In this document: piece by piece, positions 10,263 through 54,288 of the stretch | Position numbering within the stretch: the first letter of the stretch is position 1 | Layout of the letters: the number at the start of each line of letters is the position of its first letter | NCBI GenBank assembly: GCA_036406835.1 | Contig: DASXAG010000089.1 | Span: forward strand, 478-64,477 | DNA: 64,000 bases | Origin: Thermoanaerobaculia bacterium | Lineage (GTDB): Bacteria; Acidobacteriota; Thermoanaerobaculia; UBA5066; Gp7-AA6 | Direction: 5' to 3' | The notes under the pieces: generated by a model | Told to the model about the DNA's origin: nothing | The model's database searches: none | Seen by the model: only the letters and a program-made list of their open reading frames with translations | Made by a program: the position numbers and the translations under genes

Positions 10263-11639
10263 GTGGGAGAGAACGTGGTGAAAGAAGCCAAAGAGCACGG
10301 GGCGGTCGAAAGCGCGGCGCCCGAACTGGCCGATCGGCTGCGGCGGAAGATCGCCGACCGCACGGCCACGATCGGCGTGATCGGACTCGGCTACGTCGGC
10401 CTGCCGCTCATCCTGACGTTCTCGGAGGCCGGATTCCCCGCGGTCGGTTTCGACGTGGACGCCCGGAAGGTCGACGCGCTGCGCCAGGGACGGATGTACA
10501 TCCAGCACCTCGACGGCTCGCGGCTGACGCGGGCGGTCTCGGGCGGCCGGTTCCAGGCGACCGGGGACTTCGGACGGCTCGCGGAGGCGGACGTCCTCAT
10601 CATCTGCGTCCCGACGCCTTTGACCCCGCAGCGCGAGCCCGACATGAGCTACGTGACGGGAACGGTGCGCCAGGTCGCCACGCACCTGCGCGAGGGGCAG
10701 CTGGTCGTGCTCGAGTCGACGACGTATCCCGGGACAACCGACGAGCTCGTCCGCGGGATCCTCGAGGAGACGGGGCTGAGGTGCGGCGAGCAGTTCTTCC
10801 TGGCGTTCTCCCCGGAGCGCGAGGACCCCGGCAATCCGTCCTTCTCGACCGGGACGATCCCGAAGGTCGTCGGCGGCGTCGACCAGCTCGGCGGCGATCT
10901 CGCCCAGGCCGTCTACGACACGATCGTGAAGCGCACGGTCCGCGTGCGCAACGCGCGAACGGCCGAGGCGACGAAGCTCGTCGAGAACATCTTCCGGGCC
11001 GTGAACATCGCGCTCGCGAACGAGCTCAAGATGGTCTTCGACCGCATGGGCATCGACGTGTGGGAAGTGCTGGACGCCGCCTCGACCAAGCCTTTCGGCT
11101 TCATGCGCTTCGACCCGGGTCCGGGATGGGGCGGCCACTGCATCCCGCTCGACCCCTTCTACCTCTCCTGGAAGGCGCGGGAGTACGGCATCGCGCCGCG
11201 CTTCATCGAGCTCGCCGGAGAGGTCAACGTGCAGATGCCCCACTACGTCATCGAGAAGCTGCAGCTGGCCCTCAACGAGCGCGGCCGCGCGCTCCGCGAC
11301 AGCAAGGTGCTCCTTCTCGGCCTCGCGTACAAGCGCGACATCGACGATCCCCGCGAGAGCCCGGCGTTCGAGATCCTGGAGCGGCTGCTCGGCCTGGGCG
11401 TGCGCGTCTCGTACCACGATCCGCACATCCCGCTGGCGCCGAAGATGCGGACCTGGCCGAAGCTTCCCGCGTTCGCGTCGCAGCCGCTCGAGCCGGCGCT
11501 CCTCGCCGAGCAGGACGCCGTCCTGATCGTGACCGACCACACCGCGGTCGACTACCCGAAGGTGCTCGAGCACGCGCGGCTGATCGTCGACACGCGGGGC
11601 GTCTTCCGCGAGCCTCACCGCAAGGTCGTCAAGGCATAG
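10263..11639 (+). CDS. UDP-N-acetyl-D-glucosamine (or ManNAc) 6-dehydrogenase, WbpA/TviB/WecC family
   Basis: N-terminal Rossmann motif IGVIGLGYVGLPL, catalytic region GGHCIPLDPFYL and C-terminal UDP-binding domain give a full-length match to nucleotide-sugar dehydrogenases of ~440 aa. Confidence 0.85.
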   Translation: MGENVVKEAKEHGAVESAAPELADRLRRKIADRTATIGVIGLGYVGLPLILTFSEAGFPAVGFDVDARKVDALRQGRMYIQHLDGSRLTRAVSGGRFQATGDFGRLAEADVLIICVPTPLTPQREPDMSYVTGTVRQVATHLREGQLVVLESTTYPGTTDELVRGILEETGLRCGEQFFLAFSPEREDPGNPSFSTGTIPKVVGGVDQLGGDLAQAVYDTIVKRTVRVRNARTAEATKLVENIFRAVNIALANELKMVFDRMGIDVWEVLDAASTKPFGFMRFDPGPGWGGHCIPLDPFYLSWKAREYGIAPRFIELAGEVNVQMPHYVIEKLQLALNERGRALRDSKVLLLGLAYKRDIDDPRESPAFEILERLLGLGVRVSYHDPHIPLAPKMRTWPKLPAFASQPLEPALLAEQDAVLIVTDHTAVDYPKVLEHARLIVDTRGVFREPHRKVVKA

Positions 11640-11655
11640 GAACTCTTCGACGGAC

Positions 11656-52184: not shown

Positions 52185-52341
52185 AATCTCCGGGAGGTTG
52201 AGCTAGGGTGATCGCCGCATAGGACAATGAAAATCAAACCCTCGCGAAACGGGGGAGAAGCCGTGTCACCCGGCGGCGACAGGTCTTCGCTCCCGTTTCC
52301 CTTACGAGCCGGGGCGTGATTCCGACACATTCGACGACCGC

Positions 52342-54288
52342 ATGAACAAACGATCGCTCACGCCCCTTCTGACGCGCGGCCTCCAGTTCGCGCTGGACCT
52401 CGCCATCCTCATGGCGGCGTTCTCGCTCGCGTATCTGCTGCGGTTCGAGTTCGCCGTGCCCGGGAAGGAGTTTCGCAACGCGATCCAGCAGCTTCCCTAC
52501 GTCGTGCTCGTGCAGGCCTCCGCGCTCGCGCTCGCCGGCGTCTACAGCTTCATCTGGCGGTACGTCGGGATGGGCGAGATCAAGGCGTTCGTCTACGCCG
52601 CCCTGTGGTCGGGACTGACGCTCGCGGTGCTGCGCTTCTCGATCCCCGACCGCCTCACGGGCTGGCGGGTGCCGCTCTCCGTGATCCTGATGGGGACCGT
52701 GCTCGCCTTCGGCGGCGTGCTCGGGCTCCGCGTCCTGCGGCGCTACCTCTACGAGCTCTCCCAGCGCCGCGAGCGCGGGGCGCAGTCCGTCGGCCAGCGG
52801 GTGCCCACGCTCCTGATCGGCGCCGGCCGCGCCGGCGTCCTGGCCGTGCGCGAGATCAGCGGCCGCGGCGACATGAACCTCGACGTGAAGGGCTTCGTCG
52901 ACGACGACCCGGACAAGCATGGCGCCGTGATCCACGGCATCCGCATCCTCGGCACGACCGAGGAGCTCCCCCGCCTGGTCCGCGAGCACGGCATCCAGCA
53001 GGTGGTCATCACGATCGCGCAGATCTCGCGCCCGCAGATCCTCCACCTCATCGGCCTGTGCCGGAAGATCCAGGTGGACGTCCGCATCATCCCGGGCCTC
53101 TACGAGGTGCTCCAGGGCAAGGTGCAGGTGACCCGCATCCGCAGCGTGCAGATCGAGGACCTGCTGGGCCGGGAGCCCGTGTACCTCGACGAGGCGGAGC
53201 TCGGCCAGTTCCTGGCGTCGAAGCGCGTCATGGTGACCGGCGCCGGCGGATCGATCGGCTCGGAGCTCGCGCGGCAGATCGCGCGGTTCCAGCCGTCCAA
53301 GCTCCTGCTCGTCGAGCGCGCGGAGTTCGCCCTGTTCGACATCGACGGCGAGCTGCGGCGATCGCGCCCCGAGGTGCAGGTCATGCCGCTGGTCGCCGAC
53401 GTCTGCGACGAATCGCGCATGCGGGCCATCCTCGCGGAGCACGCGCCGCAGGTCATCGTGCACGCGGCCGCCCACAAGCACGTGCCGATGATGGAGTCGA
53501 ACCCCGGCGAGGCCATCAAGAACAACATCCTCGCGACGCGGCTCCTCGGCGAGCTCGCCGGCGAGCACGGCGTGGAGGCGTTCGTCCTCATCTCCACGGA
53601 CAAGGCGGTGCGGCCGACGTCGATCATGGGCGCGACCAAGCGCATCGCCGAGCTGGCGGTCCAGGACCTCGGAAGCCGCTACGCGACCCGCTACGTCGCG
53701 GTGCGCTTCGGCAACGTGATCGGCTCGGCCGGCTCGGTCGTGCCGATCTTCCGGGAGCAGATCCGCCGCGGCGGTCCGGTGACGGTGACGCATCCCGAGA
53801 TGCGGCGCTACTTCATGACGATTCCGGAGGCCGCCCAGCTCGTGCTCCAGGCGGGCGCGATGGGGCAGGGCGGCGAGATCTTCATCCTCGACATGGGCGC
53901 GCCGGTCCGCATCCTGGACCTCGCCGAGGAGATGATCACGCTGACCGGCCTGCGCCCCTACGTCGACATGGAGATCTCGTTCACGGGCCTGCGGCCGGGC
54001 GAGAAGCTCTTCGAGGAGCTCGAGCTGACCGGCGAGCACATCTCGAAGACGCGCCATCCCAAGATCCTCATCGGGCGTCTCAACGCCTATCCCCCGGAAG
54101 AGGTCGAGCGCGCGCTGCGCTACCTCGAGGAGCTCGCCCGCGACGGCGACGGAACGGCCGTGCGGAAGTTCCTCAACTCGCTGCTTCCGGAAGCCAACCT
54201 CGGCGTGCGCCGCTTCACGCGCGATCCGGCGCGACCCTCCTCCGAAGCGGCCGCGCGCGTCACGCCGCCGACCACGCCGGACGCCTGA
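52342..54288 (+). CDS. Membrane-bound UDP-N-acetylglucosamine 4,6-dehydratase, PglF/CapD/WbpM family
   Basis: Four N-terminal TM helices, then GRRVLIGAG-like and MVTGAGGSIGSEL Rossmann motifs, STDKAV and a C-terminal extension. 648 aa. Confidence 0.85.
   Translation: MNKRSLTPLLTRGLQFALDLAILMAAFSLAYLLRFEFAVPGKEFRNAIQQLPYVVLVQASALALAGVYSFIWRYVGMGEIKAFVYAALWSGLTLAVLRFSIPDRLTGWRVPLSVILMGTVLAFGGVLGLRVLRRYLYELSQRRERGAQSVGQRVPTLLIGAGRAGVLAVREISGRGDMNLDVKGFVDDDPDKHGAVIHGIRILGTTEELPRLVREHGIQQVVITIAQISRPQILHLIGLCRKIQVDVRIIPGLYEVLQGKVQVTRIRSVQIEDLLGREPVYLDEAELGQFLASKRVMVTGAGGSIGSELARQIARFQPSKLLLVERAEFALFDIDGELRRSRPEVQVMPLVADVCDESRMRAILAEHAPQVIVHAAAHKHVPMMESNPGEAIKNNILATRLLGELAGEHGVEAFVLISTDKAVRPTSIMGATKRIAELAVQDLGSRYATRYVAVRFGNVIGSAGSVVPIFREQIRRGGPVTVTHPEMRRYFMTIPEAAQLVLQAGAMGQGGEIFILDMGAPVRILDLAEEMITLTGLRPYVDMEISFTGLRPGEKLFEELELTGEHISKTRHPKILIGRLNAYPPEEVERALRYLEELARDGDGTAVRKFLNSLLPEANLGVRRFTRDPARPSSEAAARVTPPTTPDA

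What the first reader, a model, noticed from the sequence alone, without database searches (positions are those of the whole stretch)
10263..54288. A 42-kb, ~36-gene single-strand polysaccharide operon stitched together by overlapping stop/start codons
From 10263 to 52184 every gene is on the plus strand. At least 20 junctions are 1- or 4-nt overlaps: ATGA at 12711, 14920, 20157, 24158, 26560, 30071, 37209, 39054, 39929, 44897, 47387, 48283 and 49509; TGATG at 13577 and 19393; GTGA at 21990; TTGA at 31818, 41098 and 51513. The largest intergenic gaps are about 40 nt. This implies obligatory co-transcription and translational coupling over an unusually long distance. It also helps explain the dedicated NusG paralog upstream. 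Several starts are non-ATG (GTG, TTG) chosen to preserve the overlap. The same overlap style occurs in the upstream wza/wzc module (5081 GTGA, 6343 ATGA, 7176 TGATG).
Basis: seen in the sequence. Interest (0 to 1): 0.55.

Follow-up and report, generated by a model that had tools for sequence, protein, structure and literature searches.

The report
Long glycan operon with NusG antiterminator
A 42-kb run of 36 tightly packed, mostly overlapping sugar-polymer genes in an uncultured acidobacterium is real, and it is headed by a specialised NusG-type elongation factor and a conserved ops-like pause signal, so it is a new example of a known way of expressing very long operons, not a new principle.

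Summary
Between 10263 and 52184 there are 36 plus-strand genes and no credible minus-strand gene. With starts revised from relatives, 20 of 35 junctions overlap by 4 or 1 nt, 4 more by 8 or 11 nt, and the 11 gaps are at most 49 nt. ATGA is far above chance: A precedes TGA in 14 of 33 junction stops against 0.74 expected. GTGA is not above chance. Relatives about 84% identical keep the overlaps, swap the start codon at them, or re-create them nearby.

Overlaps are common in this lineage (24-30% of co-directional pairs; 57% here). Nothing here shows a single transcript or coupling.

The paralog (9585-10166) has its own conserved extended -10 box. It heads same-strand arrays in 46 of 50 related Thermoanaerobaculia loci. 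One conserved element follows it in 66 loci (window 10208-10256): an RNA hairpin, a GCG-R-AGC mini-hairpin with compensatory changes, and a pause-like YG. This is the design of E. coli ops and Bacteroides class-1 opsX.

The verdict is a new member of a known kind, of moderate interest.

The parts
4146..9419 (+). Upstream export module of four genes: a TPR protein, an unknown 421-aa protein, Wza (6343-7176) and Wzc (7176-9419). They are joined by GTGA (5081), ATGA (6343) and TGATG (7176).
   Evidence: Pfam hits. The junctions are conserved in L006 and L007, with a GTG/TTG swap at 5081.
9438..9458 (+). Terminator-like hairpin after wzc, CCTGTCC-TCAG-GGACGG followed by TTTTTG. It probably ends the export unit.
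   Evidence: Terminator scan and sequence. The stem is conserved in L006 and L007 but the T-run is not. The k-mer ACCTGTCC recurs upstream of the paralog in 12 loci.
9507..9515 (+). Extended -10 promoter-like box TGGTATCAT, 70 nt upstream of the NusG paralog's start codon.
   Evidence: Identical in L006 and L007. TGnTAnnnT occurs within 250 nt upstream in 43 of 80 related loci. My rough composition estimate puts the chance expectation at about 0.04 per locus.
9585..10166 (+). Specialised NusG paralog of 193 aa. It has an NGN domain, a predicted helix at residues 103-119, a KOW-like C-terminal domain, and a conserved 24-aa N-terminal extension.
   Evidence: Pfam NusG scores 36.4 bits against a cut-off of 22.2. 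It falls below the NCBIfam cut-offs for UpxY (66 of 100), RfaH (38.7 of 144.5), LoaP (33.6 of 125) and NusG (31.5 of 135.7). There are 977 homologues, named Thermoanaerobaculia or Acidobacteriota where named. The AlphaFold2 model and Foldseek match NusG and RfaH.
10148..10185 (+). Hairpin GGGAAGCGCC...GGCGCUUCUC spanning the paralog's stop codon, followed by an A-rich box (CAAAT here, ACAATTGA in relatives). Its role is unknown.
   Evidence: RNA fold. The arms stay complementary in distant loci (sequences).
10208..10256 (+). Conserved ops-like leader element. It has an RNA hairpin with an invariant base (UCGGU/ACCGA in relatives; CCCUUUUC-CGG/CCG-AAGGGGG in the window). It has a mini-hairpin G10240-T10250, with pairs 10240:10250, 10241:10249, 10242:10248 and 10243:10247 and loop GGA. 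The predicted pause is at T10250/G10251.
   Evidence: The core CCGAAGGGGGCGGAGCC lies downstream of the paralog in 69 of 82 sequences searched. The covariance model finds one strong same-strand hit in each of 66 loci and none elsewhere in 1.36 Mb. The mini-hairpin is 98.9% paired, with pair types GC 57, AU 9 and CG 1 at the third pair. Rfam has no match.
10263..52184 (+). The 36-gene glycan block. It encodes an NDP-sugar dehydrogenase, a TviC-like epimerase, the ABC exporter Wzm/Wzt, and a pseudaminic acid set (PseB, PseC, PseG, PseI, a cytidylyltransferase, a formyltransferase, and an acetyltransferase-DUF4910 fusion). It also encodes NeuC, NeuB and a second cytidylyltransferase, BFO_1060-type transferases, GT4 and GT2 enzymes, deacetylases, a Wzy_C protein, a CapK-like ligase, an ATP-grasp enzyme, a PHP hydrolase, a DegT aminotransferase and a small Bac_transf initiating transferase.
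   Evidence: Pfam and NCBIfam. PseB, PseC, PseG, PseI and NeuC score above their equivalog cut-offs. Junction table.
27633..27650 (+). Five-codon mini-ORF that starts on the NeuB stop (GTGA) and ends in TGA inside the 37-nt gap.
   Evidence: Present in the same place in L086, with ATGA. It may relay ribosomes across the gap; this is weak evidence.
36038..36070 (+). Ten-codon mini-ORF that starts on the upstream stop (TGATG) and ends in TAG just before a Shine-Dalgarno-like AGAGAGGAA and the conserved ATC at 36088.
   Evidence: TGATG and a mini-ORF of 13 codons ending in TAG are also present in L087.
52185..52341 (+). 157-nt spacer. Its first 110 nt or so are conserved in L087 and include TTGAGC...GACAAT and a hairpin ACGGGGGAGAAGCC...GGTCTTCGCTCCCGT. 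The last 45 nt have diverged.
   Evidence: Alignment. It may hold an internal promoter or attenuator. The sigma-70 consensus scan found nothing.
52342..54288 (+). PglF/WbpM-like membrane-anchored UDP-sugar 4,6-dehydratase of 648 aa. It is the last plus-strand gene and converges on a minus-strand beta-helix gene 18 nt away.
   Evidence: Pfam Polysacc_synt_2 at 1.6e-113. Collinear in L087.

Best explanation
The window carries a glycan-biosynthesis supercluster from an uncultured Thermoanaerobaculia (Acidobacteriota) bacterium. The most likely reading is one very long transcription unit. It starts at an extended -10 promoter near 9510 and first encodes a specialised NusG paralog. It then runs through 36 biosynthesis and export genes to 52184, and perhaps on to 54288.

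Inferred mechanism. Just after the paralog gene, RNA polymerase meets a conserved element (10208-10256). The element has a nascent-RNA hairpin, a small GCG-R-AGC hairpin that could form in the exposed non-template DNA strand, and a pause-type YG. By analogy with RfaH/ops and UpxY/opsX, the polymerase would pause there and load the paralog in place of housekeeping NusG. It would then become resistant to pausing and Rho-dependent termination over the next 42 kb.

Translation. In 24 of 35 junctions the next start codon overlaps the previous gene's end (18 by 4 nt, 2 by 1 nt, 4 by 8-11 nt). More than half of these starts also have a Shine-Dalgarno motif buried in the upstream gene. Ribosomes finishing one gene can therefore restart on the next. 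This keeps the RNA covered and the enzyme amounts linked.

Shown here: the gene layout, the overlaps and their non-randomness, their conservation, the conserved placement of the paralog and of the element, and base-pair covariation in the mini-hairpin.

Inferred: a single transcript, the pause, loading of the paralog, and translational coupling.
For: - Layout and overlaps.
- ATGA excess: 14 observed against 0.74 expected, P about 4e-15.
- Shine-Dalgarno duplexes of -6 kcal/mol or stronger precede 14 of 24 overlapping starts, against 15.6% of random positions.
- Junctions are conserved, codon-swapped or re-created in L006, L007, L086 and L087. This includes in-frame insertions directly after the overlapping TTG/GTG starts at 31818 and 51513.
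- No terminator-like sites inside the block above the shuffle expectation.
- A terminator-like hairpin after wzc plus a conserved extended -10 box precede the paralog.
- The paralog belongs to the NusG family but to none of the curated subfamilies.
- No minus-strand gene lies within 10 kb downstream in 46 of 50 related loci. Upstream, 44 of 55 loci have one, at a median distance of 6.4 kb.
- The element is found once per locus, always just downstream of the paralog, in 66 loci and nowhere else in 1.36 Mb.
- The mini-hairpin is 98.9% paired, with GC/AU/CG types at one pair and GC/GU at another.
- In register from the pause, the element matches ops at G-10, A-5, G-4, C-3, T-1 and G+1.
- Published designs are the same: the ops non-template hairpin (10.1101/324400), and the class-1 opsX pause hairpin plus GCG-AGC non-template hairpin plus consensus pause (PMC11685472).
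Against: - There are no transcript data, so promoters inside coding sequence cannot be excluded.
- The sigma-70 consensus scan found no promoter anywhere in the scanned region 3800-61900, not even the conserved extended -10 box. It is therefore uninformative for this organism.
- The 157-nt spacer before the last gene is partly conserved and could hold a promoter or attenuator.
- In the large hairpin the five invariant pairs carry no covariation, and the three outer pairs are often unpaired.
- The 9 AU variants of the mini-hairpin may stem from one ancestral change.
- The DNA mini-hairpin is thermodynamically marginal, at -0.2 to -4.5 kcal/mol. E. coli ops is similar at -0.9.
- The AlphaFold2 model gives beta strands for the C-terminal domain at low confidence, with no sign of an RfaH-type autoinhibited state.
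- A hairpin and an A-rich box lie between the paralog's stop codon and the element. They could mark a second promoter, so the element might sit in a separate 5' leader.
- Overlaps are common in this lineage anyway.
Confidence: 0.6

Rival explanations
1. The block is a gene cluster but not one operon. Several promoters inside coding sequence, and perhaps one in the 52185-52341 spacer, drive sub-operons. The overlaps then reflect general genome compaction and TGA-rich stop usage in a high-GC lineage, not a need for coupling. The NusG paralog would act only on the proximal part, or on some other target.
For: Overlaps are frequent in unrelated co-directional pairs of the same lineage (65 of 271) and across prokaryotes (PMC6728339). 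The cluster is mosaic: L086 carries extra genes inserted after window position 30182, and the head-proximal gene content differs in L003 and L005. This suggests modules that can be swapped. It combines an ABC-transporter route and a Wzy-type route, which could be expressed separately. The spacer before the last gene is conserved.
Against: Eleven gaps totalling 229 nt leave no intergenic room. The overlap rate is significantly above the lineage baseline. Overlaps are re-created after indels, which points to selection on the junctions. The paralog and the ops-like element sit exactly at the head of the array in dozens of species.
Confidence: 0.25
2. The conserved element at 10208-10256 is not a loading site for the NusG paralog. 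It could be the promoter or operator of the biosynthetic operon (TCGGTGTGTACACCGA is a perfect palindrome in many loci). It could also be a structured 5' leader RNA that senses something or is a processing site.
For: The five inner pairs of the large hairpin never vary. That fits sequence-specific protein recognition as well as it fits structure. An A-rich box and a hairpin lie just upstream. The element matches no known RNA family.
Against: The spacing between the two half-sites varies from 4 to about 30 nt, and the inserts form their own stems (L004, L009, L013, L043, L044, L078). A hairpin tolerates this; a dimeric operator does not. The 3' half carries a paired mini-hairpin with compensatory changes and a YG pause dinucleotide in register with ops. 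The element co-occurs strictly with the paralog gene.
Confidence: 0.12
3. The overlaps are artefacts of start-codon choice, and the real starts lie downstream, leaving ordinary gaps.
For: Several junctions have alternative in-frame starts within 10-60 nt. At 15960 the overlapping GTG is indeed not conserved.
Against: The ATGA excess is measured on stop-codon context alone and does not depend on start calls. Pfam domains begin within 1-5 residues of the overlapping starts at 19393, 30071 and 38290. In L086 the only in-frame start before NeuC is the overlapping GTG. Independent gene callers chose the same starts.
Confidence: 0.03

Closest known systems
Bacteroides fragilis UpxY / opsX capsule operons (class 1; Saba et al. 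2024, PMC11685472)
   Same: A locus-specific NusG paralog is encoded as the first gene of a long polysaccharide operon. The cis element combines a nascent-RNA pause hairpin, a non-template-strand hairpin with GCG-AGC stems, and a consensus-type pause. UpxY is the paralog's best curated family match.
   Different: The phylum differs. The paralog scores below the UpxY family cut-off (66 against 100 bits). No UpxZ-like second gene is present. The element lies downstream of the paralog gene, not in the leader upstream of it, so the paralog's own synthesis would not depend on it. No invertible promoter was seen; inverted repeats were not specifically searched for.
E. coli RfaH / ops (GGCGGTAGCGTG)
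   Same: The sequence GGCGG-AGCCTG matches ops at G-10, A-5, G-4, C-3, T-1 and G+1 when aligned from the pause. It has a small hairpin with C:G and G.A closing pairs and a purine in the loop. It sits at the head of a long polysaccharide operon. The function expected is exclusion of NusG and Rho.
   Different: The loop is one base shorter, and the flipped-out T6 that RfaH reads is absent. The protein scores 38.7 bits against a cut-off of 144.5. An alpha-helical autoinhibited KOW domain is not predicted. The rfaH gene is unlinked to its targets, whereas this paralog is adjacent to its presumed target.
TaA (Myxococcus xanthus, about 40-kb TA operon) and LoaP (Bacillus, dfn and mln operons)
   Same: A NusG paralog is encoded next to a very long (40 kb or more) operon whose full expression it supports (PMC7819879).
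   Different: Those operons make polyketides, not glycans. LoaP scores 33.6 of 125 bits here. LoaP is proposed to bind an RNA hairpin and to act on intrinsic terminators, and the TaA mechanism is unknown.
Overlapping co-directional gene pairs (ATGA / TGATG) coupled by termination-reinitiation (Huber et al. 2019, PMC6728339)
   Same: The same 4-nt and 1-nt stop/start overlaps occur, often with a Shine-Dalgarno motif inside the upstream gene.
   Different: The difference is density: 20 of 35 consecutive junctions (24 of 35 counting longer overlaps), against about 15-30% of gene pairs genome-wide. No coupling was measured here.

Membership tests
Translationally coupled overlapping gene pairs (termination-reinitiation) | A co-directional pair whose stop and start codons overlap by 4 nt (ATGA and the like) or 1 nt (TGATG) | tested here: met
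   Eighteen 4-nt and two 1-nt overlaps among 35 junctions. The ATGA excess has P of about 4e-15. The overlaps are conserved in relatives.
Translationally coupled overlapping gene pairs (termination-reinitiation) | Translation of the downstream gene depends on translation of the upstream gene | not testable with these tools
   This needs reporter fusions with upstream stop codons, or ribosome profiling.
NusG/Spt5 family | An NGN domain followed by a KOW domain | tested here: met
   Pfam NusG (NGN) scores 36.4 bits against a cut-off of 22.2. The KOW region aligns to E. coli NusG. The AlphaFold2 model matches NusG and RfaH structures in Foldseek at E = 3e-9 to 1e-6.
Housekeeping NusG (TIGR00922) | A score above the equivalog cut-off | tested here: not met
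   31.5 bits against a cut-off of 135.7. The gene sits between wzc and a sugar dehydrogenase. Housekeeping nusG usually lies beside secE and rplK (general knowledge, not tested here).
RfaH (TIGR01955) | Family score; the ops sequence GGCGGTAGCGTG; an autoinhibited alpha-helical KOW domain | tested here: not met
   38.7 bits against 144.5. The element lacks T6 of ops. The model shows beta strands in the C-terminal domain, at pLDDT 50-78, so that last point is only weakly informative.
UpxY (NF033644) | A score above the subfamily cut-off | tested here: not met
   66 bits against 100. It is the best of the curated families.
UpxY system | The paralog is the first gene of the polysaccharide operon | tested here: met
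   A conserved extended -10 box lies upstream. A same-strand array follows in 46 of 50 loci.
UpxY system | A UpxZ inhibitor is encoded as the second gene | tested here: not met
   The second gene is an NDP-sugar dehydrogenase here and in L003 and L005.
UpxY system | The ops site lies in the leader upstream of the paralog gene | tested here: not met
   The element lies 40-75 nt downstream of the paralog's stop codon in most loci. The covariance model finds no copy upstream.
ops-class recruitment element (ops / opsX class 1) | A pause hairpin, a non-template-strand hairpin with GCG-AGC stems, and a G-10 / Y-1 / G+1 pause | tested here: met
   All three sequence features are present and conserved. 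The mini-hairpin pairs covary. The comparison rests. Pausing and binding themselves were not tested.
LoaP (NF033641) | A score above the family cut-off | tested here: not met
   33.6 bits against 125.
Pseudaminic acid pathway | PseB, PseC, PseG and PseI equivalogs | tested here: met
   PseB scores 478 against 408, PseC 467 against 424, PseG 176 against 154, and PseI 474 against 340 bits. PseF and PseH are not settled: the 30071 protein scores 156 against 206, and there is an acetyltransferase-DUF4910 fusion and a formyltransferase.
Rfam RNA families (including JUMPstart) | Any covariance-model match to 9380-10420 | tested here: not met
   No hit at the gathering threshold in the whole window. 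Only one chance-level hit at E of 10 or less.

The most novel reading that the evidence does not exclude
The Thermoanaerobaculia NusG paralogs and the element that follows them would form a separate, phylum-specific branch of the ops-type recruitment mechanism. The element is a hairpin, then GCG-R-AGC, then YG. Its non-template hairpin loop is one base shorter than in E. coli ops. It is placed after the regulator gene, not before it, so the regulator would be made constitutively and only the 36 downstream genes would depend on it. In addition, short relay ORFs (27633, 36038, and one in L087 at the 49509 junction) and a conserved AUC start (36088) would belong to a deliberately unbroken chain of ribosome hand-over along the 42 kb.
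Probability: 0.45. Interest if true: 0.55.

Novelty: new member of a known kind. Interest (0 to 1): 0.4.

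Why it matters
Long polysaccharide and antibiotic operons are the classic clients of specialised NusG paralogs. Mechanistic knowledge comes from only a few lineages, chiefly E. coli, Bacteroides and Bacillus. This locus gives a testable pair in Acidobacteriota: a protein clade and a 49-nt cis element conserved across dozens of uncultured species, at the head of one of the longest and most tightly packed glycan arrays.

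If confirmed, it would extend the ops principle (a non-template-strand hairpin plus a pause) to another phylum. It would also show a wiring in which the regulator is not under its own control.

In practice, the element and the paralog mark the start of glycan loci in these metagenome-assembled genomes, and could help when such clusters are expressed in other hosts. The overlap pattern itself is ordinary biology and should not be treated as a discovery.

Tried and rejected
- Sigma-70 consensus promoter scans found nothing anywhere in 3800-61900. They also missed the conserved extended -10 box, so they are uninformative for this GC-rich organism.
- Terminator scans inside the block found only weak sites within coding sequence, at or below the shuffle expectation.
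- Rfam gave no match, at the gathering threshold or at E of 10 or less, to the leader region. No tRNA genes were found.
- I tested an extended outer stem (CCCUUU/AAGGGG) for the large hairpin. It is often unpaired and shows no double changes, so I do not claim it as conserved structure.
- I looked for an RfaH-like alpha-helical KOW domain with AlphaFold2. None was predicted, but confidence in that domain is low.
- The 14-codon relay ORF at 50225-50269 (ATGA ... TGATG) is not conserved in L087, so I do not rely on it.
- A gap-based estimate of operon length in relatives failed, because long-read metagenome-assembled genomes (L006, L086 and other MFD bins) carry frameshifts that break genes. I replaced it with a strand-based test.
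- I considered gene-calling artefacts as the source of the overlaps and rejected this.
- The source organism cannot be named. Only identical 12-kb JGI metagenome contigs and related genomes were found.

Full report
**What is in the sequence.** The window is 64-75% G+C, so raw ORF lists are useless. I called genes with a codon-usage log-odds model. This gives an unbroken plus-strand series of 42 genes from 4146 to 54288. Minus-strand ORFs inside the block score 15-28, against at least 77 for the plus-strand genes. JGI and ENA gene calls on identical or related contigs give the same layout and mostly the same starts.

**The junctions.** With starts revised from relatives, the 35 junctions break down as follows:
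- 18 overlaps of 4 nt
- 2 overlaps of 1 nt
- 3 overlaps of 8 nt
- 1 overlap of 11 nt
- 11 gaps of 4-49 nt, 229 nt in total

**Is this more than chance?** A 4-nt overlap needs only a TGA stop preceded by A, G or T. In this genome G is the third codon base 44% of the time, so GTGA is expected by chance at nearly half of all stops. It is in fact depleted (5 observed, 14.4 expected). The real signal is ATGA. A is the third base in 2.2% of codons but precedes TGA at 14 of 33 junction stops (0.74 expected, P about 4e-15). TTGA, at 3 observed against 1.06 expected, is not significant alone. This test uses stop context only and does not depend on where starts are called. Shine-Dalgarno-type pairing of -6 kcal/mol or stronger precedes 14 of 24 overlapping starts, against 15.6% of random positions in the block. 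Many overlapping starts therefore have a ribosome-binding site buried in the upstream gene. Others (13577, 30071, 31818, 47387) have none and would depend on re-initiation.

**Comparative test of the junctions.** The NusG paralog has 977 homologues. A genome scan returned 80 loci from Thermoanaerobaculia and Acidobacteriota metagenome-assembled genomes. Four relatives about 84% identical at the DNA level are collinear with parts of the window:
- L006 and L007 cover 1-20123.
- L086 covers 18791-33849.
- L087 covers 34996-56198.

The junctions behave as follows in these relatives:
- Identical overlaps: 6343, 12711, 14920, 24158, 30071, 39054, 39929 and 47387 (ATGA); 7176, 13577 and 19393 (TGATG); 41098 and 51513 (TTGA); 18641, 32959 and 46320 (longer overlaps).
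- Same overlap with a different start codon: 5081 (GTG/TTG); 20157, 44897, 48283 and 42500 (ATG/GTG); 31818 (TTG/GTG).
- Overlap re-created a few bases away after indels: 21990 (GTGA becomes ATGA) and 26560 (ATGA becomes TGATG).
- At 31818, L086 has a 63-nt in-frame insertion with no other start codon. At 51513, L087 has a 27-nt in-frame insertion directly after the TTG. Both argue that the overlapping non-ATG starts are used.
- Not supported: GTGA at 15960 (CTGA in L007; ATG 15972 is conserved), GTG 10263 (the conserved start is GTG 10278), GTG 50266 (the conserved start is ATG 50269) and GTG 36097 (GTC in L087).

**How unusual is it?** In the 80 related loci, 4-nt and 1-nt overlaps make up 77 of 261 junctions (30%) in arrays downstream of the paralog. 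They make up 65 of 271 (24%) among other co-directional neighbours. The window's 20 of 35 (57%) is significantly higher (P about 1e-3 to 1e-4) but differs in degree, not in kind. Across 720 genomes about 15% of gene pairs overlap co-directionally, rising to about 30% in some groups. Coupling by termination-reinitiation has been shown for such pairs (PMC6728339). Thirty-five same-strand junctions in a row have P of about 1e-5 at the lineage's 72% same-strand rate. Operons of about 40 kb under NusG paralogs are already known (TaA; PMC7819879).

**What the genes are.** The upstream module encodes a TPR protein, an unknown protein, Wza and Wzc. The paralog follows. The block then encodes, in order:
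- an NDP-sugar dehydrogenase and a TviC-like epimerase
- the ABC exporter Wzm/Wzt, with a Wzt_C domain
- PseB, PseC, PseG and PseI, all above equivalog cut-offs
- a methyltransferase, two cytidylyltransferases, a formyltransferase and an acetyltransferase-DUF4910 fusion
- a DUF6044/YfhO-type membrane protein
- NeuC and NeuB
- BFO_1060-type transferases
- five GT4 and two GT2 enzymes, and three deacetylases
- a Wzy_C protein
- a CapK-like ligase, an ATP-grasp enzyme and a PHP hydrolase
- a DegT aminotransferase and a small Bac_transf initiating transferase

A PglF-like dehydratase follows after a 157-nt spacer. The locus is therefore a composite with two nonulosonic-acid pathways. It carries both ABC-type and Wzy-type assembly parts. 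Downstream on the other strand lie beta-helix and SLH-domain proteins.

**The NusG paralog and its cis element.** The 193-aa protein is a NusG-family member (Pfam, PDB sequence search, AlphaFold2 and Foldseek). It falls below the curated cut-offs of NusG, RfaH, LoaP and UpxY, with UpxY the best match at 66 of 100 bits. A terminator-like hairpin follows wzc (9438-9458). An extended -10 box (TGGTATCAT, 9507-9515) precedes the paralog. The same type of box is present in 43 of 80 relatives. In 46 of 50 loci with at least 9 kb of downstream sequence, no minus-strand gene follows the paralog within 10 kb.

The 96-nt spacer after the paralog is more conserved than the coding sequence around it. Its core, CCGAAGGGGGCG[G/A]AGCC, lies downstream of the paralog in 69 of 82 sequences searched. 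A covariance model finds one strong hit in each of 66 loci. Every hit is on the same strand just after the paralog, and there are none elsewhere in 1.36 Mb. In the window the hit is 10208-10256.

The element has three parts:
- A hairpin whose base (UCGGU/ACCGA) never varies. Its distal part varies from 4 to about 30 nt and forms its own stems.
- A mini-hairpin, G-G-[G/A/C]-C G-R-A G-[C/U/G]-C-Y. It is 98.9% paired, with GC 57, AU 9 and CG 1 at one pair and GC/GU at another, against 25-49% when the partners are slid.
- A terminal YG.

Counted from that Y as -1, the element has G at -10 and A-G-C at -5 to -3, as in E. coli ops. In ops, C3:G8 and G4.A7 form a non-template-strand hairpin and T11/G12 contact the polymerase. 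Bacteroides class-1 opsX sites have the same three parts: a pause hairpin reaching -12 to -9, a non-template hairpin with GCG-AGC stems, and a consensus pause. Rfam has no family for the element.

There are differences from Bacteroides. The element lies after the regulator gene, not before it. No UpxZ-like gene is present.

There are caveats. The invariant stem gives no covariation, and the outer stem is not supported. The AU variants may share one origin. The DNA hairpin is marginal in free energy, as ops is. A hairpin over the paralog's stop codon plus an A-rich box could mean a second promoter.

**Conclusion.** A single, paralog-assisted, translationally coupled unit from about 9.5 kb to at least 52 kb is the best model (confidence about 0.6). 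Co-transcription, pausing, loading of the paralog and coupling are inferences. The phenomenon belongs to known kinds: overlapping coupled genes, and a specialised NusG paralog with an ops-type site at the head of a long glycan operon. The new content is a previously undescribed protein clade and element in Acidobacteriota, with a different wiring.

Noticed in passing
window 36038-36145; L087 1040-1160: The GT4 gene has no conserved canonical start codon. The peptide IRIVAVQTGLSPLSVLGGTVTDREF... is 100% identical in L087, with only synonymous DNA changes. Yet the window's GTG 36097 is GTC in L087, an in-frame TAG lies 3 codons upstream there, and the next GTG is 57 nt downstream. A conserved ATC (36088) with a well-spaced Shine-Dalgarno motif suggests a rare AUC start.
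   Followed up: partly
window 27633-27650, 36038-70, 50225-50269; L087 at the 49509 junction: Some of the larger gaps hold short ORFs that start on the upstream stop (ATGA, GTGA or TGATG) and end at or next to the next start. The one at 27633 is conserved in L086 and the one at 36038 in L087. L087 gained a 29-nt insertion that makes a 10-codon ORF with ATGA at both ends. The one at 50225 is not conserved. They may relay ribosomes across gaps, or may be chance.
   Followed up: partly
window 10148-10200: A hairpin (GGGAAGCGCC...GGCGCUUCUC) spans the NusG paralog's stop codon. An A-rich box follows (CAAAT here; ACAATTGA or AAATTGA in relatives). Both recur in distant loci. Their role is unknown; a second promoter or a processing site are possibilities.
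   Followed up: partly
window 9438-9458 and the matching sites in L009, L013, L015, L019, L027, L034: The hairpin after wzc is conserved in sequence (CCTGTCC-N4-GGACAGG-like) across distant relatives. Only the window has a clear T-run, so it may be a protein or RNA site and not a simple terminator.
   Followed up: no
window 52185-52341: The first 110 nt or so of the spacer before the PglF-like gene are conserved in L087. They include TTGAGC...GACAAT and an imperfect hairpin (ACGGGGGAGAAGCC...GGTCTTCGCTCCCGT). The last 45 nt have diverged. This is a candidate internal promoter or attenuator.
   Followed up: partly
window 14920-32966: Two nonulosonic-acid pathways sit in one array: a pseudaminic acid set (PseB, PseC, PseG, PseI) and a NeuC/NeuB/cytidylyltransferase set. 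They come with a formyltransferase, a methyltransferase and an acetyltransferase-DUF4910 fusion, and two BFO_1060-type putative transferases. In L086 extra genes are inserted between the two sets, so the locus is mosaic.
   Followed up: partly
window 12711-14923, 41098-42507, 6343-9419: ABC-transporter parts (Wzm and Wzt with a Wzt_C domain) and Wzy-type parts (Wzy_C, Wza, Wzc) occur in the same co-directional locus. No Wzx flippase was recognised. The unknown proteins at 17167, 32959 and 34431 have not been examined for this role.
   Followed up: no
window 54307-60670 (minus strand): Three large secreted-type proteins with right-handed beta-helix and SLH domains converge on the end of the array, 18 nt from its last stop codon. 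L087 keeps at least the first two. SLH-anchored proteins next to a glycan locus in an acidobacterium may point to a cell-surface layer linked to this glycan.
   Followed up: no
window 9585-10166 (protein residues 1-24 and 103-119): The paralog family has a conserved 24-aa N-terminal extension (MPLLKRGTEIFP..LF.L...PWW). The model predicts a 17-residue helix between the NGN and KOW domains. Neither is present in E. coli NusG or RfaH alignments.
   Followed up: no
L060, L062, L065, L067, L073, L082: In these loci the ops-like element lies about 470-560 nt after the paralog, not 40-75 nt. Something lies in between, possibly a small gene. I did not examine it.
   Followed up: no
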